A stretch of DNA of 64,000 nucleotides, taken from the IMG/VR virus record IMGVR_UViG_3300020045_001036, positions 1-64,000 of that record; one strand, 5' to 3'. A program made the translations under genes and the position numbers. Below are positions 27,851-55,933 of the stretch, piece by piece. The DNA is from a virus. Each line of letters starts with the position of its first letter. The stretch's first letter is position 1. The notes beneath the pieces are model-generated. The model was not told where the DNA came from. It made no database searches and saw nothing but the letters and a program-made list of their open reading frames with translations.

Positions 27851-29488
27851 ATGAGTAAATCAAATACAAAACTCGCAAGTACCATAGGTACACTAAAGCC
27901 TAAACCTGCACTAGTTGCATCTAAGGCTATTCCAAAACCCGATACTACAAATATATCGGGCCATTCTGCTTATACTCAAGATAAATGGAGGAGATTATTG
28001 ACAATATTGAATACATCAAAGTTACAATCCCAATACTATAGAAGTGAATCTGCTACATTGAAAGATTTACACACTTTAATTGCTGATTGTGCTCAAGAAA
28101 ATTTATATTTAACTTGTCAATGCATTGTCTATTCTAGATGTGTAGGAGAAGGTCTTAGGACTATATCCCATGCTGCATCTGTATTTATATCCTCATATTT
28201 AGCTGGCGCTGAATTCTCAAAGAGATTTTACTCTCAATGGGATAAAGGTAAAAAGCAAGGTGGCGTTATATTTAGACCAGATGATATGTCTGAAATTATG
28301 CAAGGTTTTATTGCTTTGAATACTTCAACAGAATCCAGTCCTAAACTAACTAATGCAATGAAAAAAGGTTTTGCTAACGCTATTGAATCTTATGATTCCT
28401 ATCCGTTATTAAAATACAAATCTTCACTGATTGACGTTATAAATCTAGTTAGACCGAGTTCAGCTAGATCTAAAGCTACTGTTGAGGTGAATAATGAATC
28501 TATTAAAACAATAGATGCTATTATGAGAGGCCTTAAAGTGTCTGCTGACACATGGGAAGTAAATCAAGTAAAAGCTGGCCAAATTGTTGCTGAAGCTGTT
28601 AAAGAAGGTAAAGTTGATATTATTGAAGCTAAAACTATTTTAACAGATGCTAAAGCAGAAAATTGGGATGAACTGTTATCTAATGATAAATTAGGGATTC
28701 TAGCCGCTATTAGGAATATTAGAAATATTCTATTAAACAATCCTAAAAAATCTACAATAGCTACATTAGATACTCTATTATCTAATCCGGATAGAATTAG
28801 AGCTGGTAAAATATTCCCGTATCAATTAGATATGGCAAATGAACTTATCATGCAAGAATTTCCACATAATCCAGATGCTAGACAGTTACAAGTAGCATTA
28901 CTTAAAGGCTACATGCATGCTATACCTAATCTTGCTGCTATTCTACCGGGTAGGAATGTCGTATTTTTAGACCAATCTGGTTCTATGGATAAAGTAATTA
29001 GATATGGTACTAAAAATGGTTCACAAAGCTGTTCTAAAAAAGCATCAATGCTAGCTGCTACCATAGCGTTAGCTACTAATGCTGACATTATTAGATTTGG
29101 TTCCAATGCAATGTACACTAATTACAGTTCTGTTGTAGATGTGTTTACACTAGCAGGACAATTAGATAACCCAAGAATGGGTGGTACTAGCTTATCGAGT
29201 GCTTGGAAGTTAGCTTCAAAGAAAGAAATTGGATATGATAGAGTTTTTATCTTATCTGATAATGAATGTAATATAGGATCTTCTTATGATAGATACAAAC
29301 AGTATGTAGAAAAAGTTGGTGATCCTTATATATATTCAGTAGATCTTGCAGGATATGGCACTGATTGTATGGCGGGAGACAAAGTAAAGTATTTTTATGG
29401 TTATGGTATGGCTATGTTTGAAGATATTGCTAAATTAGAGTATAATCCTGATCACCATATGGATAAAGTTAAACAAATAATAATCTAA
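27851..29488 (+). CDS. rsr: Ro60/Rsr-like TROVE + vWA domain RNA-binding protein
   Basis: TTN.SG..AY N-terminus, RPDDM, LLKY, DTWE, LAAIRNIRNI, KIFPYQ, MIDAS DQSGSM, GGT, ILSDNE. Confidence 0.9.
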   Translation: MSKSNTKLASTIGTLKPKPALVASKAIPKPDTTNISGHSAYTQDKWRRLLTILNTSKLQSQYYRSESATLKDLHTLIADCAQENLYLTCQCIVYSRCVGEGLRTISHAASVFISSYLAGAEFSKRFYSQWDKGKKQGGVIFRPDDMSEIMQGFIALNTSTESSPKLTNAMKKGFANAIESYDSYPLLKYKSSLIDVINLVRPSSARSKATVEVNNESIKTIDAIMRGLKVSADTWEVNQVKAGQIVAEAVKEGKVDIIEAKTILTDAKAENWDELLSNDKLGILAAIRNIRNILLNNPKKSTIATLDTLLSNPDRIRAGKIFPYQLDMANELIMQEFPHNPDARQLQVALLKGYMHAIPNLAAILPGRNVVFLDQSGSMDKVIRYGTKNGSQSCSKKASMLAATIALATNADIIRFGSNAMYTNYSSVVDVFTLAGQLDNPRMGGTSLSSAWKLASKKEIGYDRVFILSDNECNIGSSYDRYKQYVEKVGDPYIYSVDLAGYGTDCMAGDKVKYFYGYGMAMFEDIAKLEYNPDHHMDKVKQIII

Positions 29489-30712: not shown

Positions 30713-31080
30713 GGGCCCGACTGGTTTTGAGGTGGGATTAGTAAGTACAAAAGGACAGCCAGAGAGACAACTGTAAACTAAGGTGAATTTATTTAAACGG
30801 AAAAGCACAAATCAAAGCCAATATGGCTAAAGTTATGACATTACTTAATGGTGGAACCTCTGTAGAGAGTGATACTGAAATGTTAATGGCAGCATAATTT
30901 AATACGCATGAGTTTCCTTGAACTATAAACAAGGTGGTGGAATCCAACTAAATCAGTTGGCTCTAATCTTCCACATTTAGTAGTGTTTAAAGGAAGTAAA
31001 AGATTAAATACTACAATAAGCTGTAATATCCTTAGTAATGAACGTTGCTATCGACCGGAGTTCGAATCTCCGCGGGTCCA
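30713..31080 (+). ncRNA. ssrA: tmRNA
   Basis: Acceptor GGGCCCG/CGGGTCC-A with G3-U70; GGTTTTGA; GAC-CGGAG-TTCGAAT-CTCCG T arm; tag ORF 30799-30897 ending AA-stop. Confidence 0.9.
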
Positions 31081-31096
31081 CTAAAACAATAGAGAT

Positions 31097-31360: not shown

Positions 31361-31439
31361 AAATAGAGTAGTTAAAGTTAAGTTACTTCAAAAAATATGG
31401 ATTTTTAAACAACAAACTTAACTCCTGTTCTCTCTATTT
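31361..31439 (+). ncRNA. Y-RNA-like element, copy 1
   Basis: AAATAGAG/CTCTATTT and AGTTAAGTT/AACTTAACT stems with TAGTTA, ACTTC and TTCT core. Confidence 0.7.
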
Positions 31440-31443
31440 AAAT

Positions 31444-31517
31444 TCCTCTCTAGCTCAATTGGTTAGAGCTCCGCACTGTTAATGCGGAGGTTCCTGGTTC
31501 GAGCCCAGGGAGAGGAG
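31444..31517 (+). tRNA. tRNA-Asn(GTT)
   Basis: Full cloverleaf, loop CTGTTAA. Confidence 0.95.
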
Positions 31518-31527
31518 CAATAAAAAC

Positions 31528-31602
31528 TGGGGGAAACGATAGTTCGAACCTATCTGGGGCCACAATAGTGTGGTTCTATCGTCTAGGGGATAGGACGCCC
31601 TA
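31528..31602 (+). ncRNA. Circularly permuted tRNA-like RNA (T arm - closed acceptor stem - D arm)
   Basis: The 3' half precedes the 5' half and all stems pair. Confidence 0.8.
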
Positions 31603-31610
31603 AAATTACA

Positions 31611-31733
31611 AATACAAGGTAGTTATAACTAAGTTACTTCAACTTTAGCTCATAGAGCAAATAACTTTTAATTATTCGGAACCAGTTAAATCTGGTATTT
31701 TGCAAACACCTTAGTTAGCATTCTCCTTGTATT
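31611..31733 (+). ncRNA. Y-RNA-like element, copy 2, with degenerate tRNA-Lys(TTT) insert
   Basis: AATACAAGG/CCTTGTATT and TAACTAAG/CTTAGTTA stems; internal D-, anticodon- and T-like arms. Confidence 0.75.
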
Positions 31734-31789
31734 ATTATTTCTTTATGTGAATTATATGTTGTACCTTTGTACATATTAATTCACATGTT

Positions 31790-32254
31790 ATGAACACAGA
31801 ACAATTTATACCTTGGTTTACAGGGTTATTTGAAGGAGAAGGATCCTTCTACATTACAAAAGGTATAGCAAAAGGCTTATCCTTGACATCTACAGATTTA
31901 GATGTGTTAGAGAGAATACAAGAGCATTTAGGTGGCAATATCTGTGCAAGTACAACAAAGAGAGAGCATTGGAAACAAGCCTATATTTGGACTATACACG
32001 GTATAAATGCTAAAAGGGTTGTAGAAAATATGCAACCATACCTTTTAAATAGAAGATTAAATAGATCCCAGGAATGGATATCTTTATATGATGCTAATGT
32101 AGAAATACAAGCAACTAAGAAATTAGAACAAGAACAAAAAATTCAACAAATTTTAATTTTAAGTGAAACAGGTTTAACACATTCTCAAATAGCTTCACAA
32201 ATGGGTTATGAAAGAAGTAGTGTAACTAAGATCATTAACAAGATTAGACCTTAG
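31790..32254 (+). CDS. Free-standing LAGLIDADG homing endonuclease with C-terminal HTH
   Basis: WFTGLFEGEGSF motif; TACCTTTG at 31762-31769. Confidence 0.85.
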   Translation: MNTEQFIPWFTGLFEGEGSFYITKGIAKGLSLTSTDLDVLERIQEHLGGNICASTTKREHWKQAYIWTIHGINAKRVVENMQPYLLNRRLNRSQEWISLYDANVEIQATKKLEQEQKIQQILILSETGLTHSQIASQMGYERSSVTKIINKIRP

Positions 32255-32283
32255 TCTCACCTTTCACACTAATCTTTATTATT

Positions 32284-32469
32284 ATGAGCAGAACTTTAAG
32301 AAGATCAAAAAAAGATAATAAAATATATCCAGAAGGACAATTTCCTAAAGTCTTTAGATATGTATGTAGATGTTCTTATTGTACAGGAGTAGATAAACAG
32401 ACTCTAGTTAATAAGATTCAAAAAAAAGAGTTAAAACAATTAATAAACTACAATGCAACATGGATTTAA
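32284..32469 (+). CDS. Small basic Cys-containing protein
   Basis: MSRTLRR...CRCSYC. Confidence 0.5.
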   Translation: MSRTLRRSKKDNKIYPEGQFPKVFRYVCRCSYCTGVDKQTLVNKIQKKELKQLINYNATWI

Positions 32470-32554
32470 ATAAATATCTAGTATTAGGAATATTAGGTTT
32501 AAATATTGCATTATATCTTTATATCTATATCGTAGATATAAAGAAAAATAAGAT

Positions 32555-32635
32555 AACACAATAGTAATGAGAAAGTTACTTCAACAAAATCTGTAACATT
32601 TTATAAAACCAACTTTCTTAAATGTTCTTTGTGTT
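32555..32635 (+). ncRNA. Y-RNA-like element, copy 3
   Basis: AACACAA/TTGTGTT and TGAGAAAGTT/AACTTTCTTA stems, same core. Confidence 0.7.
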
Positions 32636-32638
32636 TAT

Positions 32639-32712
32639 GGCCCTTTAGCTCAGCTTGGTAGAGCAGTTGACTCATAATCAAAAGGTCTCAGGTTCAAATC
32701 CTGGAGGGGCCA
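32639..32712 (+). tRNA. tRNA(CAT), likely Ile2
   Basis: GGCCCTT acceptor and GA-CTCATAA-TC, typical of Ile2. Confidence 0.85.
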
Positions 32713-32743
32713 CAACTAATTAATTAACTAAACAATTAAAATC

Positions 32744-32887
32744 ATGCCTAAAGTAAAAATAAAACAACAGACTCCACAAGAACGCGCTGATGCGTTCCAT
32801 AATTGGATGCAAAATAAAGTCAAATCTGTACATCTAGCTGATAATGCTAAAATGTCGGAAGCTTATGTAAAAGTATATAAAGCATAG
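32744..32887 (+). CDS. 47-aa hypothetical protein
   Basis: MPKVKIKQQTPQERADAFHNWM... Confidence 0.45.
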   Translation: MPKVKIKQQTPQERADAFHNWMQNKVKSVHLADNAKMSEAYVKVYKA

Positions 32888-32992
32888 CCCTATACTTGAT
32901 GGCTATAGGGTTTAAGTAAGCACATACATTCAGATAACATTACACACTAAGAACAATTGAATGTTCATTCTGACGTATGTGCTTTAAAATAT

Positions 32993-33063
32993 AGGATATA
33001 GTTATAAGTAAGTTACTTCAAAAACGCTATTTTTAAAAAAAACTTACTTAGCTTTCTTATCCT
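32993..33063 (+). ncRNA. Y-RNA-like element, copy 4
   Basis: AGGATA/TATCCT and TAAGTAAGTT/AACTTACTTA stems, same core. Confidence 0.7.
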
Positions 33064-33187
33064 TAAACTTAATGAGAGAACCGTGATATGCACCTTTAGG
33101 TAGTATAGAGCAAACGTCATACTCATTACAATACTAGTCCATACGGGTAGATGGTTAACTTGCTAATACCATGCAAGCTAGTAAAAT

Positions 33188-33258
33188 TGGGATATGGTGT
33201 AATGGTAACACAACTGTTTTTGGTGCAGTCTTTCAAGGTTCGAGTCCTTGTATCCCTA
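33188..33258 (+). tRNA. tRNA-Gln(TTG)
   Basis: Cloverleaf, loop TTTTGGT. Confidence 0.9.
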
Positions 33259-33442
33259 CTACTCTGTTTACACCTTTGTCATACAAAGTGGGGAGCCATG
33301 CCCAGAACACTGGTGAGTTTTGTATGTTATGTAGAAATTTAAACATTCAGGTCTTAGTTACTTGCAAATAACTAAGATAACAGTTAAGAAGTATATATCA
33401 GTATGTGCGAGTACACAGAACTATAGAGAGCTTAACTTTAAT

Positions 33443-33524
33443 GGCTATGTGGCGGAATTGGTAGACGCACTAGATTTAGGATCTAGCACCGTAAGGTTTG
33501 TGGGTTCGAGTCCCACCTAGGCCA
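33443..33524 (+). tRNA. tRNA-Leu(TAG)
   Basis: Cloverleaf with variable arm; two acceptor-stem mismatches. Confidence 0.85.
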
Positions 33525-33649
33525 CAGCAGTTACTTGATTCTCGTATAGTACAGTAACAATTATCAGGATATGAGATGTCCATGGATAGTCCTTTAGTGA
33601 TGTGGAATTCCATCCTAACATGCCTGAGTAGGAAAGCTTAGGCACCAAT

Positions 33650-33720
33650 GCGTGGGTGATGTAATGGTAACATGGTGGTCTCCAAAACCATTCTTAGAGG
33701 TTCGAGTCCTTTCCTGCGCG
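33650..33720 (+). tRNA. tRNA-Trp(CCA)
   Basis: Cloverleaf, loop CTCCAAA, G73. Confidence 0.9.
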
Positions 33721-33837
33721 CAAAGAGATAGTATATTTAAGTATATAGTAACTAGTATAACTGTTAGAGTAATTAATAATGTATGCGAAATAGTTATTCA
33801 ATTCTGAAAGCAATTTCTCTTTTTAAATGAAAAGTAT

Positions 33838-33999
33838 ATGGGATACAAAGATGAAAATACAAAGCACAGAGTAGGAGTGTTAACACCTAAAAAAGGTTTT
33901 AAATGTCCTAAATGTGGCGATGATAAAATTAAAGTTAAAGCTACACTTGTAGTATGTCCTTCTTGTAAGAAGATAGTAGACGGTAAATATTTAAAATAA
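33838..33999 (+). CDS. 53-aa zinc-ribbon protein
   Basis: CPKC...CPSC. Confidence 0.55.
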   Translation: MGYKDENTKHRVGVLTPKKGFKCPKCGDDKIKVKATLVVCPSCKKIVDGKYLK

Positions 34000-34066
34000 A
34001 GATTAAGGGTCTTGTAATGTATACACATCTAAGATTGTCACTTATCCATGTGGGTATCTTTATTAT

Positions 34067-34139
34067 GGTCCTGTAGCTCAGTTGGTAGAGCACCTGCCTG
34101 AAGAGCGGGGTGTCAGAAGTTCGAGTCTTCTTGGGACCA
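34067..34139 (+). tRNA. tRNA-Phe(GAA)
   Basis: Cloverleaf, loop CTGAAGA. Confidence 0.9.
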
Positions 34140-34200
34140 CAAATGTGATTAAACTTTTTCTATGGGGTCACAAAGAGATATATCTCTACATAGAAGCAAT

Positions 34201-34272
34201 GGCCTATTCGTCTATTGGTTAGGACCCCAGGTTTTCAGCCTGGTAAGAACAGTTCGACTCTGTTATAGGCTA
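34201..34272 (+). tRNA. tRNA-Glu(TTC)
   Basis: Cloverleaf, loop TTTTCAG. Confidence 0.9.
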
Positions 34273-34277
34273 CAAAT

Positions 34278-34351
34278 CGTGAGGTAGAGCAGATGGTTAG
34301 CTTGCTGGGCTCATAACCCAGAGGTCGGTGGTTCGAATCCACCCCTCGCAA
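34278..34351 (+). tRNA. Initiator tRNA-fMet(CAT)
   Basis: C1:A72 mismatch and three G-C pairs in the anticodon stem. Confidence 0.92.
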
Positions 34352-34407
34352 CTAAAGTGGAGTATACGTGTAGTAACCACAAGATTGATATCATCTACTA
34401 CACTCTA

Positions 34408-34486
34408 GGGTTTATGGCAGAGCGGTCGAATGCGGCAGACTGTAAATCTGTTATCCCACACCGTGGTTCGAATCCACGTGGACCCA
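34408..34486 (+). tRNA. tRNA-Tyr(GTA)
   Basis: Cloverleaf, loop CTGTAAA; unpaired 10-nt variable region. Confidence 0.88.
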
Positions 34487-34534
34487 CAACAAGTCCCTCT
34501 AGACATGGATTGTTAAGTTTGTTATTAGTTAATT

Positions 34535-34564
34535 AACCCTGCATAGCAATATGTGGGGTTTTTT
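34535..34564 (+). terminator. Terminator ending the tRNA cluster
   Basis: AACCCTGCATA-GCAA-TATGTGGGGTT followed by a T-run. Confidence 0.75.
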
Positions 34565-34597
34565 GTGTCTAGTAGGTCAAGATTAAATTTGAGAATT

Positions 34598-35263
34598 ATG
34601 TTGAAGAAGAATAAAAAAAGTAGAGTACTAATAATAGGAGATCTACATGAACCTTTTAGTTTAAAAGGGTATATGAAACATTGTAAAGATGTTTACAAAA
34701 AACACAATTGTGATACAGTAGTATTTATAGGCGATATCATTGACAATCATGCTAGTTCTTATCATGAGTCTGACCCTGATGGGCATAGTGCGGGGAGTGA
34801 GTTAGATTTAGCAATTAATAAAATTAAATGTTGGTATAGAGCTTTTCCTAAAGCCACTGTGATTATAGGTAATCATGATAGACTAATATTCAGAAAAGCA
34901 TTTAGTTCCGGCATTCCAAAAAGATGGATTAAGAACTATTCAGAAATATTAAAAACTCCAGGATGGGATTTTAGGGAATCTGTTGAGATAGATGGTATAT
35001 CTTATATTCACGGAGAAGGTGGTACAGCTAGAAATAGAGTTAGAAAAGATCTTTGTTCTATAGTGCAAGGTCACTTACATACACAATCTTATACAGAATG
35101 GGTAGTAGGTAAAAACTTCAAAATATTTGCTATGCAAGTAGGTTGTGGTATTGATGCTAAGGCCTATGCTATGGCTTATGCTAAAAACTTTCCAAAACCT
35201 GCAATTAGTTGTGGAGTAGTCTTAGAAGGAGACACAGCATTAAATGAAATGATGAATTTATAA
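34598..35263 (+). CDS. Calcineurin-like metallophosphoesterase
   Basis: GDLH, GDIID, GNHD, HG, GHLH; GTG at 34553 lies within the terminator, so ATG 34598 is preferred. Confidence 0.85.
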   Translation: MLKKNKKSRVLIIGDLHEPFSLKGYMKHCKDVYKKHNCDTVVFIGDIIDNHASSYHESDPDGHSAGSELDLAINKIKCWYRAFPKATVIIGNHDRLIFRKAFSSGIPKRWIKNYSEILKTPGWDFRESVEIDGISYIHGEGGTARNRVRKDLCSIVQGHLHTQSYTEWVVGKNFKIFAMQVGCGIDAKAYAMAYAKNFPKPAISCGVVLEGDTALNEMMNL

Positions 35264-54576: not shown

Positions 54577-54776
54577 GATATTTAGTAACAGAAGAATTAA
54601 AAACTTCTTTCCTTTTGAAGGTAAAGAGGTTTTTTAGATTAGCAAAACCTCGAATGGAATTTTTTGCAAATTCTTATGCTACAGGATTTTATCCTGAAGA
54701 CAAGTCCTACTATATGTGTAGGAATACAGTAAAAATAATTAAAAGAGCAAAACAAAGATTAGTATGGAAGCAGTAA
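54573..54776 (+). CDS. Hypothetical protein
   Basis: Coupled 67-aa ORF. Confidence 0.45.
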   Translation: MRYLVTEELKTSFLLKVKRFFRLAKPRMEFFANSYATGFYPEDKSYYMCRNTVKIIKRAKQRLVWKQ

Positions 54777-55933
54777 TTTTAGTGACAATAAAAAATAAAA
54801 TTCCTTTATTTAAGGGGAAAGATAAGGCAACTTCAATTGAGTTAATTGAATTAGAAGAAGTAGGTTATGAACTAGTTTCTCAAAAAGATTTATATGCGGT
54901 AGGAGATAAAGCTATATTAGTACAGCCAGATTATTGTGTAAGTGATACAGAATTGTTTGAATCGTTTATTAGACCAGATGGTAATGAGTCCAAATCTATG
55001 TTGGGTAAAGTAGGAGGATTACCAAGAAGAATTAGAGCTAAGAAATTTACTCTATCTAAAGAACCTGAAGGAGCTCCCGTATATTCTAATGGTATCTTAC
55101 TGAGATACAAAGATGTAGTTAGATATATTGGTAAAGAAATGGATAGCACTACTATTACAGCAGACTTAGGAATCACTAAATATGAAGAACCAGAAGCTGG
55201 TACTCCAGGGTTAGCTGGTAGAGGTGGTAGAGATTTTCCAACATGGTTGTATAAAACAGATGAAACTAACATCAATAACTTGTGGAATCATTTAGAGAAA
55301 GTTGTTAAGTGGCCTGTATTCCTTGTGGGTACAGAAAAAGAAGATGGTTCTAGTATTACTATAGGTAGAAAGGATATGGATGAATACGTATGTTCTAGAA
55401 ACTTAATTAAACCTTTTGTAGAGACTAGATTTAGTCATATGAGAGATCTTACACTTAAGGAAAGATTTAATAAGTTCTTTACTGGTTTAACACCTAACTT
55501 AGCTACTTATAAAAAGGTACCTACTACAGACACATTTGTATTGCAAGGTAAGCCTTACTTAGAACAATTAGAAGGTTATGATAATTTCTTCTTAAGAGGA
55601 GAGTTAAATGGTTCTAGTGCTAAAGGATCCGGAAATAAAAACAATCCCGCAGCTAAAAGAGAATTAAACATCAAATTCTTTGGATTAGATTATATCAATG
55701 AAGTTGGTATAGCTGTTAAAGCTAGTAAAGAACAATTTGATAAGTTCTGTGTAATCAATGAACTACCTCAAGTTAAAACAGTGTTTAGAAAGAAATTCAA
55801 AAACAAAGCAGCTCTTGTAAAAGAATGTGAAGCTTATTTCAAAAAGAATCTTATTGAAGGTATTGTTGTTAGAACTTTGGATAGCTCTTTTAGTGCTAAA
55901 TACATGAATCTAGAGTATGATTCTAAAAAATAA
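54764..55933 (+). CDS. RNA ligase, Rnl2/DRB0094 family
   Basis: N-terminal OB-like domain, LGITKYE, FP.W..KTDE, TEKEDGSS, RGELNG, EGIVVR, SAK. Confidence 0.85.
   Translation: MEAVILVTIKNKIPLFKGKDKATSIELIELEEVGYELVSQKDLYAVGDKAILVQPDYCVSDTELFESFIRPDGNESKSMLGKVGGLPRRIRAKKFTLSKEPEGAPVYSNGILLRYKDVVRYIGKEMDSTTITADLGITKYEEPEAGTPGLAGRGGRDFPTWLYKTDETNINNLWNHLEKVVKWPVFLVGTEKEDGSSITIGRKDMDEYVCSRNLIKPFVETRFSHMRDLTLKERFNKFFTGLTPNLATYKKVPTTDTFVLQGKPYLEQLEGYDNFFLRGELNGSSAKGSGNKNNPAAKRELNIKFFGLDYINEVGIAVKASKEQFDKFCVINELPQVKTVFRKKFKNKAALVKECEAYFKKNLIEGIVVRTLDSSFSAKYMNLEYDSKK

What the first reader, a model, noticed from the sequence alone, without database searches (positions are those of the whole stretch)
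31641..32602. Y-like RNAs display anticodon stem-loops (Lys-UUU, Tyr-GUA) as cargo
Seen: the copy 2 cargo is a stripped tRNA-Lys. It has TA-GCTC-ATA-GAGC-A (D arm lacking GG), an intact AATAA-CTTTTAA-TTATT anticodon arm, ACCAG-TTAAAT-CTGGT (T arm lacking C56) and no acceptor stem. The copy 3 cargo is AAAAT-CTGTAAC-ATTTT (32586-32602), a 5-bp stem with a 7-nt C-U-GUA-A loop. Copies 1 and 4 carry A5/T5 hairpins with less convincing loops. Established: tRNA-Lys(UUU) is cut by PrrC and PARIS AriB, and tRNA-Tyr by retron Ec78 PtuAB and colicin E5. No intact tRNA-Lys is present in this window. Inference: Ro60-stabilised anticodon baits could titrate host anticodon nucleases or route them to degradation.
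Basis: partly seen in the sequence, partly recalled or inferred. Interest (0 to 1): 0.75.

Follow-up and report, generated by a model that had tools for sequence, protein, structure and literature searches.

The report
Phage Y-like RNAs displaying tRNA anticodon arms
Next to its Ro60 gene this phage encodes four small structured RNAs built on one conserved two-stem frame, and two of them present what look like the anticodon arms of tRNA-Lys and tRNA-Tyr, a design that recurs in many related phages and may serve to engage proteins that read tRNA anticodon loops.

Summary
Four elements (31362-31438, 31613-31731, 32555-32635, 32992-33064, all +) share a covarying outer stem, a UAGUnA / UUCU internal loop, an inner stem, ACUUC, then a variable cargo.

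A covariance model of this frame found 140 of 141 matches on the Ro60 strand in 77 Ro60-anchored phage loci, clustered within about 1-4 kb of Ro60. Conversely, 16 of 18 contigs found through the RNA motif alone encode Ro60. The elements are therefore a phage Y-RNA-like family. Rfam YrlA misses it, and the window copies lack the CGAA Ro motif.

Copy 2 carries a reduced tRNA-Lys(UUU) body: Rfam tRNA 36.3 bits, 3-nt D loop, 6-nt T loop, 4 of 7 acceptor pairs, perfect anticodon arm. Copy 3 carries a 5-bp/7-nt hairpin with loop CUGUAAC.

Family-wide, 69 of 145 cargos hold an anticodon-type hairpin (reversed 10, shuffled 5.5). Among hairpin-only cargos, 11 of 17 perfect 5/7 hairpins fit YU-NNN-RN, against a 10% background. 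Lys triplets are about 2-4 fold over-represented.

These stems are A/U-only, and the triplets vary freely inside conserved bodies, so decoding looks unlikely. The anticodon-nuclease decoy idea is plausible and untested. This is a new variant of a known kind.

The parts
27851..29488 (+). Ro60 (TROVE + vWA/MIDAS) ortholog, the presumed protein partner
   Evidence: Pfam gives weak TROVE and vWA_Ro60 hits. A profile of 11 relatives hits solved Ro60 structures 9kop/9l5y, 1yvp, 9nen and 2nvo at E 1e-19 to 1e-6. The MIDAS D374-S376-S378 is invariant.
31362..31438 (+). Y-like RNA copy 1: frame plus a short hairpin cargo with an AUAUGGA loop (UGG-loop class)
   Evidence: Fold. Model R1 scores it 81.4 bits, as a training sequence. 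Relatives carry UUAUGGU and UUUGGAU loops.
31613..31731 (+). Y-like RNA copy 2: frame plus a reduced tRNA-Lys(UUU) body
   Evidence: R1 scores it 40.6 bits, E 7.5e-5, and it was not in the training set. The fold has z -4.0.
31639..31704 (+). Cargo of copy 2: tRNA-like, with D arm, anticodon arm AAUAA-CUUUUAA-UUAUU (31660-31676) and a T arm with a 6-nt loop
   Evidence: Rfam tRNA 36.3 bits, with alignment shown. ARAGORN at relaxed threshold calls tRNA-Lys(ttt).
32555..32635 (+). Y-like RNA copy 3: frame plus the hairpin AAAAU-CUGUAAC-AUUUU (32586-32602)
   Evidence: R1 scores it 55.9 bits, E 3e-8, and it was not in the training set. Fold. The phage's own tRNA-Tyr loop is CUGUAAA.
32992..33064 (+). 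Y-like RNA copy 4: frame plus a short A/U hairpin with loop ACGCUAU
   Evidence: R1 scores it 67.7 bits, as a training sequence. Fold.
31528..31602 (+). Free-standing circularly permuted tRNA-like element (T arm, capped acceptor, D arm), directly 5' of copy 2. It has the YrlA-type domain layout but sits outside any frame. Whether it belongs to the system is uncertain.
   Evidence: Read from the sequence and folded. No Rfam YrlA hit at E<=10. No sequence relatives in the fetched loci.

Best explanation
The four elements are phage Y-RNA-like non-coding RNAs. The conserved frame is an outer stem, a UAGUnA/UUCU internal loop, an inner stem ending GUU, and ACUUC. It is most likely the handle bound by the phage's Ro60 ring protein, and the variable cargo is a display module derived from tRNA.

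In copy 2 the cargo is a tRNA-Lys(UUU) body that has lost its acceptor stem and its D/T elbow contacts but keeps a perfect anticodon arm. In copy 3 only an anticodon-type hairpin (GUA triplet) remains.

These RNAs cannot be charged, and their A/U-only anticodon stems are unlike decoding tRNAs. I therefore infer that they present an anticodon-arm look-alike to proteins that read tRNA anticodon loops. In a phage the most likely readers are host tRNA-cleaving defence nucleases, so the Ro60-bound RNAs would act as competitive baits.

Shown here:
- The structure family and its covariation.
- The tight two-way genomic link to Ro60.
- The tRNA descent of the cargos.
- The enrichment of anticodon-type loops.

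Inferred, not shown:
- Ro60 binding.
- Expression as discrete stable RNAs.
- The identity of the cargo's partner.
- The decoy effect.
For: Frame:
- The exact 11-mer occurs only at the four sites and all four share one fold.
- On a 10-sequence alignment, 93% of cells pair against 63% after shuffling and 38-56% after sliding, and 13 of 16 pairs show double changes.
- In 145 unique members UAG.A, GUUACUUC and UUCU are near-invariant.

Link to Ro60:
- 140 of 141 model hits lie on the Ro60 strand in 77 Ro60-anchored loci.
- 35 of 73 hits lie within 1 kb of Ro60 and 59 of 73 within 4 kb.
- 16 of 18 contigs found through the RNA motif alone encode Ro60, including all 8 that are at least 90% complete.
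- 51 loci that match the 5' motif by chance gave 0 model hits.

The same frame houses a YrlA-type tRNA-like domain in some members: Rfam YrlA 33.1 bits, E 3e-5, over the domain only.

Cargo:
- Copy 2 scores 36.3 bits as tRNA.
- 69 of 145 cargos carry anticodon-type hairpins, against 10 when reversed and 5.5 when shuffled.
- Among hairpin-only cargos, 11 of 17 perfect 5/7 hairpins are anticodon-type, against a 10% background.
- The Lys loops CUUUUAA and CUCUUAA, identical to those of the phages' free tRNA-Lys, sit on differing, compensating stems in normal, permuted and hairpin-only cargos.

Against a decoding role:
- Scaffolded anticodon stems are 14% GC against 55% in free tRNAs.
- 39 of 71 scaffolded triplets duplicate a free tRNA in the same locus.

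Context from papers:
- Y RNAs lie near Ro60 on the same strand and mimic tRNA (PMC4201824).
- A phage Ro60 binds Y-like RNAs (PMC12135203).
- A Ro60-like protein of phage Bas63, encoded upstream of its tRNA genes, counters the ppl defence (PMC11482910).
- Phage tRNAs rescue infection from PARIS and from retron Ec78 PtuAB (10.1101/2024.01.02.573894; PMC11555353).
Against: - There are no expression or binding data.
- The window copies lack the CGAA/GNCGAAN0-1G motif shown to matter for Ro60 binding elsewhere. They read ACUUCAA. In the family, CG follows ACUU in 101 of 145 members and exact CGAA in only 20 of 145.
- Rfam YrlA does not match the window.
- Triplets vary freely inside conserved bodies. 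They include UUA and UCA, which no ordinary host tRNA has, and are A/U-rich. This fits relaxed constraint plus AT bias as well as an arms race.
- Lys enrichment shrinks from 3.8-fold (against free tRNAs) to about 2-fold against position-wise composition (14 observed, 7.4 expected), and it is not corrected for relatedness.
- Once the UGG-loop class and one near-duplicate are removed, the short-cargo excess is 5 against 1.4 expected (p 0.015).
- YU-NNN-R loops are also the general U-turn design of RNA kissing loops.
- Anticodon nucleases often need base modifications and a tRNA body that these hairpins may lack.
Confidence: 0.5

Rival explanations
1. RNA-repair or quality-control platform rather than decoy. 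The frame binds Ro60, and the tRNA-like cargo recruits tRNA-handling enzymes (ligase, end-healing enzymes, PNPase, RNase P, CCA enzyme) so that the complex repairs or clears damaged tRNAs during infection. The triplet's identity would be irrelevant.
For: - In bacteria Ro60 and YrlA sit in the rtcBA RNA-repair operon, which is induced by damaged tRNAs (PMC7790460). Comparative genomics calls TROVE plus a tRNA-like partner a repair platform (PMC7824862).
- Y RNA tethers Ro60 to PNPase, and the phiLo phage Ro60 forms such complexes (PMC4201824, PMC12135203).
- The phage encodes an RNA-ligase-family protein at 54764-55933 and a metallophosphoesterase right after the tRNA array at 34553-35263.
- Free variation of the triplet inside conserved bodies fits a partner that reads tRNA shape rather than the anticodon.
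Against: - Hairpin-only cargos such as copy 3 keep just the anticodon-type arm, which most tRNA-body-binding enzymes would not recognise.
- Copy 2 has lost the elbow and the acceptor, the parts those enzymes read, while keeping the anticodon arm.
- No RtcB in the genome.
- The ligase family hit is modest and could be a DNA-end enzyme.
Confidence: 0.25
2. The scaffolded tRNA-like cargos are working or maturing tRNA genes, and copy 2 is the phage's tRNA-Lys. The frame is a leader-trailer helix used for processing, protection or timed release, as with M. smegmatis YrlA, which RNase P cuts and which then receives CCA.
For: - Some relatives carry complete tRNAs inside the frame, scoring 56-66 bits over the full Rfam model. 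ARAGORN at default settings embedded tRNAs.
- The window genome has no other tRNA-Lys, while the relative L001 has a free one.
- 32 of 71 scaffolded triplets are not duplicated by a free tRNA in the locus.
Against: - Copy 2 has 4 of 7 acceptor pairs, a 3-nt D loop without G18 G19 and a 6-nt T loop without C56.
- 55 of 145 members carry only short hairpins and about 32 are circularly permuted, so none of these can be charged.
- Anticodon stems are 14% GC against 55% in free tRNAs, and A32 is frequent.
- 39 of 71 triplets are redundant with a free tRNA.
Confidence: 0.12
3. The elements are cis-acting punctuation of the tRNA operon (nuclease entry sites or insulators), or selfish repeats, and their cargo loops carry no meaning.
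For: They are interleaved with tRNA genes on one strand, with a single terminator-like site after the last tRNA at 34535-34560. A LAGLIDADG endonuclease gene lies between copies 2 and 3.
Against: - The copies differ in stem sequence yet still pair, which is unlike recent repeats.
- The loop motifs are invariant across phages whose Ro60 proteins are only 40-60% identical.
- Linkage is to Ro60, often directly abutting the gene even away from tRNA arrays.
- Cargo loops are strongly non-random.
Confidence: 0.05

Closest known systems
YrlA / bacterial and phage Y RNAs (Chen et al. 2014, PMC4201824; Rfam RF02553)
   Same: - Encoded within a few kb of Ro60 on the same strand, several per genome.
- A long stem formed by the two ends, then a large internal loop, then a tRNA-like module.
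- In some family members the cargo is a YrlA-type domain (V hairpin, T arm, capped acceptor, D arm) that RF02553 recognises at 33 bits.
   Different: - The stem module is different: conserved UAGUnA/UUCU loop and GUU-ACUUC.
- RF02553 matches neither the window nor any full element at its gathering score.
- The GNCGAAN0-1G motif is absent from the window copies.
- Cargos are far more varied: whole tRNAs, acceptor-less tRNA bodies, two kinds of permuted tRNA that keep the anticodon arm, and bare hairpins.
Deinococcus radiodurans Yrn1
   Same: It was modelled with a tRNA-like part that includes a 5-bp 'anticodon arm' (PMC4201824), so a Y RNA carrying an anticodon-arm analogue has a precedent.
   Different: The Yrn1 loop has 6 nt and no tRNA identity was proposed for it. 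Here the loops have 7 nt with the C/U32-U33...R37 frame, and some are identical to tRNA-Lys loops.
Thermus phage phiLo Ro60 with Yrl1 and Yrl2 (PMC12135203)
   Same: A phage-encoded Ro60 with adjacent stem-bulge-stem RNAs. Binding was shown by gel shift and cryo-EM. The window's Ro60 family profile hits this structure best (9kop/9l5y).
   Different: The phiLo Yrls depend on a CGAA motif and have no reported tRNA-derived cargo. Their proposed role is to dampen host PNPase.
Phage Bas63 gp130 (Ro60-like) counter to the ppl defence (PMC11482910)
   Same: A Ro60-like phage gene directly upstream of a tRNA gene block with a measured counter-defence phenotype. The authors guessed that some of the 'tRNAs' are Y RNAs.
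   Different: No RNA partner was defined there, and ppl is not known to target tRNA. Homology of gp130 to the window protein was not tested here.
Phage tRNAs that overcome tRNA-cleaving defences (PARIS, retron Ec78 PtuAB, PrrC)
   Same: Same conflict and the same tRNA species, Lys and Tyr (10.1101/2024.01.02.573894; PMC11555353; PMC2610378).
   Different: Those are functional replacement tRNAs that escape cleavage. The elements here cannot be charged, so they would have to work as baits or adapters.

Membership tests
YrlA / Y RNA-like (RF02553) | Encoded close to (about 4 kb or less) and on the same strand as a Ro60/TROVE gene | tested here: met
   The copies lie 1.9-3.6 kb downstream of Ro60 (27851-29488) on the + strand. 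Family-wide, 140 of 141 hits are on the Ro60 strand and 59 of 73 lie within 4 kb. The reciprocal test gives 16 of 18.
YrlA / Y RNA-like (RF02553) | Scores at or above the Rfam gathering score (69 bits) | tested here: not met
   Best match in the whole genome is 16.2 bits, E 0.065. None at gathering in 6 related loci. The best relative scores 33.1 bits, over the tRNA-like domain only.
YrlA / Y RNA-like (RF02553) | GNCGAAN0-1G (CGAA) motif on the 5' strand of the Ro60-binding stem | tested here: not met
   All four window copies read ACUUCAA. In the family, ACUUCG occurs in 101 of 145 members and ACUUCGAA in 20 of 145. This is only a partial resemblance.
YrlA / Y RNA-like (RF02553) | Long stem formed by the 5' and 3' ends, enclosing a large internal loop or module | tested here: met
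   Folds, covariation of both helices and the consensus of 145 members.
YrlA / Y RNA-like (RF02553) | tRNA-like domain with T arm, capped acceptor stem and D arm, opening at the anticodon-stem position | tested here: not met
   Copy 2 has the normal tRNA order (D, anticodon, T), opens at the acceptor position and keeps the anticodon arm. Copies 1, 3 and 4 carry only hairpins. An element with the YrlA layout exists at 31528-31602 but lies outside any frame.
YrlA / Y RNA-like (RF02553) | Bound by Ro60 in vivo or in vitro | not testable with these tools
   Needs immunoprecipitation or a gel shift.
tRNA (RF00005), for the cargo of copy 2 | Covariance-model score above gathering (29 bits) | tested here: met
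   36.3 bits over model positions 1-71.
tRNA (RF00005), for the cargo of copy 2 | Seven-pair acceptor stem that allows processing and charging | tested here: not met
   4 of 7 pairs. ARAGORN at default settings does not call it.
tRNA (RF00005), for the cargo of copy 2 | D-loop G18 G19 and T-loop U54 U55 C56 elbow contacts | tested here: not met
   The D loop is AUA. The T loop is UUAAAU, 6 nt with no C56.
tRNA (RF00005), for the cargo of copy 2 | 5-bp anticodon stem with a 7-nt loop, Y32 U33 NNN R37 | tested here: met
   AAUAA-CUUUUAA-UUAUU. The loop is identical to that of 30 free phage tRNA-Lys genes in related loci.

The most novel reading that the evidence does not exclude
A widespread phage system in which one conserved Ro60-binding frame serves as a plug-in display stand for interchangeable tRNA parts. 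The parts are whole tRNAs, acceptor-less bodies, permuted tRNAs, bare anticodon arms and UGG-loop hairpins. The displayed anticodon triplet turns over rapidly between phages as programmable bait, or as a sensor, against host nucleases that cut specific tRNA anticodon loops. It would be an RNA-based counter-defence, distinct from replacement tRNAs and from RNA repair.
Probability: 0.25. Interest if true: 0.85.

Novelty: new variant of a known kind. Interest (0 to 1): 0.66.

Why it matters
Ro60 and Y RNAs are conserved from bacteria to humans, yet what the tRNA-like part of bacterial Y RNAs is for is still open. This family adds well over a hundred new phage Y-like RNAs that the Rfam YrlA model misses. 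It shows that one protein-binding frame can carry many different tRNA-derived modules, and it isolates the anticodon arm as the piece kept when everything else is stripped away.

That gives a concrete, testable lead. The cargo may be read by anticodon-loop-binding proteins, possibly the tRNA-cleaving defence nucleases now known to shape phage-host conflicts. It also warns that some genes annotated as 'tRNA' in phage arrays are probably Y-RNA cargo.

Tried and rejected
- Rfam YrlA on the window, and on 31500-31760 at E<=10: no usable match.
- blastn of the region against INPHARED phages: only generic tRNA matches.
- First pattern scan of IMG/VR with 14 specified bases: mostly chance hits. It was useful only after filtering with my descriptor and the covariance model.
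- Window-type 23-nt pattern in IMG/VR and in the metagenome collection, aimed at close relatives: 51 loci, all chance matches, 0 model hits. I therefore could not compare copies 2 and 3 with near-identical genomes. These loci served as a negative control.
- The alignment of 29 Ro60 relatives was too diverse for the locus finder. I replaced it with 11 sequences.
- blastn-short of the permuted element 31519-31612 against all loci: nothing.
- RtcB and T4 Rnl1 families are absent from the genome. The Rnl1 control search rang in no genome, so that negative is weak.
- Selfish repeat or MITE: rejected because the stems covary.
- 'Copy 1 is an anticodon mimic': rejected, because its relatives conserve UGG rather than a loop frame.
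- Lys enrichment as strong evidence: toned down after the composition control.
Full report
**Setting.** The window is the first 64 kb of a complete 95,350-bp viral record with direct terminal repeats. Another follow-up note of this scan calls the genome crAss-like; I did not verify that.

On the + strand, in order:
- An ORF at 27851-29488. Pfam gives weak TROVE and Ro60-vWA hits. A profile of 11 relatives hits the solved Ro60 structures of Thermus phage phiLo, Xenopus, human and Deinococcus (E 1e-19 to 1e-6). Its MIDAS Asp-Ser-Ser is invariant.
- Three small ORFs.
- A tmRNA at 30713-31083.
- A cluster of nine tRNA genes at 31444-34487, ending at a terminator-like hairpin.

**Observation.** The 11-mer AGTTACTTCAA occurs exactly four times in the window, all on + and all inside this cluster. 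Each copy folds the same way:
- an outer stem of 6-8 pairs;
- an internal loop, 5' UAGU(U/A)A(n) against 3' (n)UUCU;
- an inner stem of 8-10 pairs ending GUU;
- ACUUCAA;
- a variable cargo.

The stems differ between copies but still pair.

- Copy 2 has a D arm GCUC-AUA-GAGC, an anticodon arm AAUAA-CUUUUAA-UUAUU (31660-31676) and a T arm ACCAG-UUAAAU-CUGGU. Rfam's tRNA model scores it 36.3 bits against a gathering score of 29. ARAGORN calls it tRNA-Lys(ttt) only at a relaxed threshold, with 4 of 7 acceptor pairs.
- Copy 3 carries AAAAU-CUGUAAC-AUUUU at 32586-32602.

The whole genome has no tRNA-Lys gene.

**Is the frame a real RNA family, and is it tied to Ro60?** I first wrote a descriptor scan. 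I then aligned ten short-cargo members from the window and from IMG/VR contigs.

On that alignment 93% of cells pair, against 63% after shuffling and 38-56% after sliding the partner. Thirteen of 16 pairs carry compensatory double changes. One caveat: the members had been picked by a descriptor that demands pairing.

A covariance model (R1) was run over 77 loci fetched solely through Ro60 protein similarity, oriented with Ro60 on +.
- It gave 141 matches at E<=1, of which 140 are on the Ro60 strand.
- Window copies 2 and 3, which were not in the training set, score 40.6 and 55.9 bits.
- In loci with full flanks, 35 of 73 elements lie within 1 kb of Ro60 and 59 of 73 within 4 kb, many directly abutting the gene.

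Conversely, 16 of 18 contigs found only through the RNA motif encode a Ro60 homologue. That includes all eight records at least 90% complete; the two without one are 8-11% fragments.

Fifty-one loci that match the 5' motif by chance gave no model hit.

Across 145 unique members UAG.A, GUUACUUC and UUCU are near-invariant, while the stem positions vary in a paired manner.

Same-strand proximity to Ro60 is the criterion by which bacterial and phage Y RNAs were originally recognised (PMC4201824).

**Relation to known Y RNAs.** Rfam's YrlA model does not detect the window copies (best 16 bits), nor any full element in six related loci at gathering. In members whose cargo has the YrlA layout it does recognise the cargo: L137:9841-9926 scores 33.1 bits, E 3e-5, over model positions 23-89, which is the tRNA-like domain and not the stem. 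The family therefore shares the tRNA-like module with YrlA and uses a different stem module.

The CGAA/GNCGAAN0-1G motif matters for Ro60 binding in bacteria and in phage phiLo (PMC4201824, PMC12135203). It is only partly echoed here: ACUUCG in 101 of 145 members, ACUUCGAA in 20 of 145, and ACUUCAA in all four window copies.

**What the cargos are.** Of 145 unique cargos:
- 55 are short hairpins.
- 50 are tRNAs in normal order. Some are complete tRNAs scoring 56-66 bits. Others are bodies trimmed by two acceptor pairs and followed by a GNRA hairpin.
- 32 are circularly permuted. These either have the T arm first with the anticodon arm last, or have an anticodon arm or V hairpin first.
- 8 are other long forms.

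Copy 2 of the window is the most reduced of the tRNA-like cargos. Acceptor, D-loop GG and T-loop C56 are gone, while the anticodon arm is perfect.

I counted perfect 5-bp/7-nt hairpins, excluding T loops, whose loop fits Y-U-NNN-R-N.
- All cargos: 69 of 145 carry one. The same sequences reversed give 10, and 200 shuffles give a mean of 5.5 and a maximum of 12.
- The 56 short cargos: 11 of 17 such hairpins fit, against 0 of 17 reversed and a shuffle mean of 1.0, maximum 4.
- Background in the same loci, with tRNAs and elements masked: 10% of such hairpins fit, at 1.03 per kb against 7.95 per kb in short cargos (binomial 7e-8).
- Six of the eleven belong to a separate class whose loops conserve UUGG/UGG. 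Copy 1 of the window belongs to this class, with a related AUGG-type loop (AUAUGGA) that has A32 and so is not one of the eleven.
- Without that class, and counting one near-duplicate pair once, 5 remain against 1.4 expected (p 0.015). Four of these five are Lys (UUU three times, CUU once). The fifth is the window's copy 3.

A second Tyr-type hairpin (ACAAU-CUGUAAA-AUUGU) turned up in L100 in the permissive scan only. Related short cargos carry CUUGUAA. The Tyr reading of copy 3 is therefore reasonable but thin.

**Lys.** Lys triplets make up 14 of 79 scaffolded anticodon-type loops, against 44 of 932 free tRNAs in the same loci (Fisher 6e-5). They occur in 14 of 58 loci.

The loops CUUUUAA and CUCUUAA are identical to those of the phages' free tRNA-Lys. 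They sit on many different, compensating stems in normal, permuted and hairpin-only cargos.

Two caveats apply. The members are related, and the loops are A/U-rich. Position-wise composition predicts 7.4 Lys triplets where 14 are seen.

**Are they decoders?** Probably not.
- Scaffolded anticodon stems are 14% GC, against 55% in free tRNAs.
- A32 is common in one class.
- 39 of 71 scaffolded triplets duplicate a free tRNA in the same locus.
- Hairpin-only, permuted and acceptor-less forms cannot be charged.

Within classes that share body and stem the triplet varies widely. One class shows six different triplets among 12 members, eight of which have the identical stem AUUUU/AAAAU. Another shows ten triplets among 15. 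The triplets include UUA and UCA. This is either diversifying turnover of what is displayed or indifference to the triplet. I cannot separate the two, because close relatives could not be fetched.

**Mechanism.** Shown:
- a structured RNA family;
- its two-way linkage to Ro60;
- the tRNA descent of its cargos;
- preferential retention of the anticodon arm with a conserved loop frame.

Inferred:
- Ro60 binds the frame.
- The cargo presents an anticodon-arm look-alike to proteins that read anticodon loops.

In a phage the most likely readers are host tRNA-cleaving defence nucleases, which would make the RNAs baits. Three kinds of context support this.
- tRNA-Lys and tRNA-Tyr are targets of PrrC, PARIS and retron Ec78 PtuAB, and phages counter these with their own tRNAs (PMC2610378; 10.1101/2024.01.02.573894; PMC11555353).
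- A Ro60-like protein of phage Bas63, encoded just upstream of its tRNA block, has a measured counter-defence phenotype (PMC11482910).
- Ro60 with a tRNA-like partner is linked to tRNA damage responses in bacteria (PMC7790460, PMC7824862).

The main rival is a repair or quality-control platform in which the cargo recruits tRNA-handling enzymes. The phage does encode an RNA-ligase-family protein and a metallophosphoesterase next to the array.

**Verdict.** Relative to what is known, this is a new variant of the Y RNA kind, with a new stem module and a much broader, modular set of tRNA-derived cargos.

Noticed in passing
window 31528-31602 (+): Free-standing circularly permuted tRNA-like element between tRNA-Asn and copy 2. 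It reads T arm GAUAG-UUCGAAC-CUAUC, acceptor stem capped by an AAUA loop, then a D arm with GG. This is the YrlA domain layout but without the conserved frame. Rfam YrlA gives no hit and no relatives turned up in the fetched loci.
   Followed up: partly
window 31362-31438; L121:16029, L122:18022, L147:1282, L141:1407, L150:1806 and others: A distinct cargo class: short hairpins whose loops conserve UUGG/UGG. 20 of 56 short cargos contain TGG. UGG could mimic the D-loop G18 G19, or pair with the CCA end of tRNAs. Neither idea was tested.
   Followed up: partly
L125:12230-12364, L124:12384-12519, L143:12317-12449, L132:1602-1733, L151:13504-13635 and others: Complete tRNAs (Rfam 56-66 bits) embedded in the Y-like frame. 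They share one acceptor stem (GUAAAAU-type) but carry different anticodons between phages: UGG, CAG, GUG, UUG, GCU, UAG and UCA. They often have A32 and G37.
   Followed up: partly
L137:9160, L124:11798, L172:11877, L131:11928, L132:1602, L001:15024: Scaffolded anticodon-type loops with stop-codon-reading triplets (UUA, UCA). These could be suppressor-like RNAs or simply products of A/U drift.
   Followed up: no
window 32591-32597 versus 31383-31387 and the other copies: GUAAC in the copy 3 loop is the exact complement of the invariant GUUAC of the frame. The CUUGUAA loops of relatives keep four of these bases. This may be a kissing contact or a coincidence.
   Followed up: no
window 31790-32254 (+): LAGLIDADG homing-endonuclease-like ORF with a C-terminal helix-turn-helix, lying between copies 2 and 3.
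   Followed up: no
window 34553-35263 and 54764-55933 (+): A metallophosphoesterase (phrog_221, E 2e-52) directly after the tRNA array, and an RNA-ligase-family protein (PF09414, 32 bits). Together they could be RNA end-healing and sealing functions. No RtcB in the genome.
   Followed up: partly
window 30713-31083 (+): Phage-encoded tmRNA (Rfam 56.5 bits, full length) between the Ro60 operon and the tRNA/Y-like cluster.
   Followed up: no
L001:14935-15170: Two frames in tandem or nested, with T-arm plus acceptor-strand fragments. GGGGAAG lies upstream and pairs with CUUCCCC after a T arm. This is a composite element that my descriptor and the model split in different ways.
   Followed up: no
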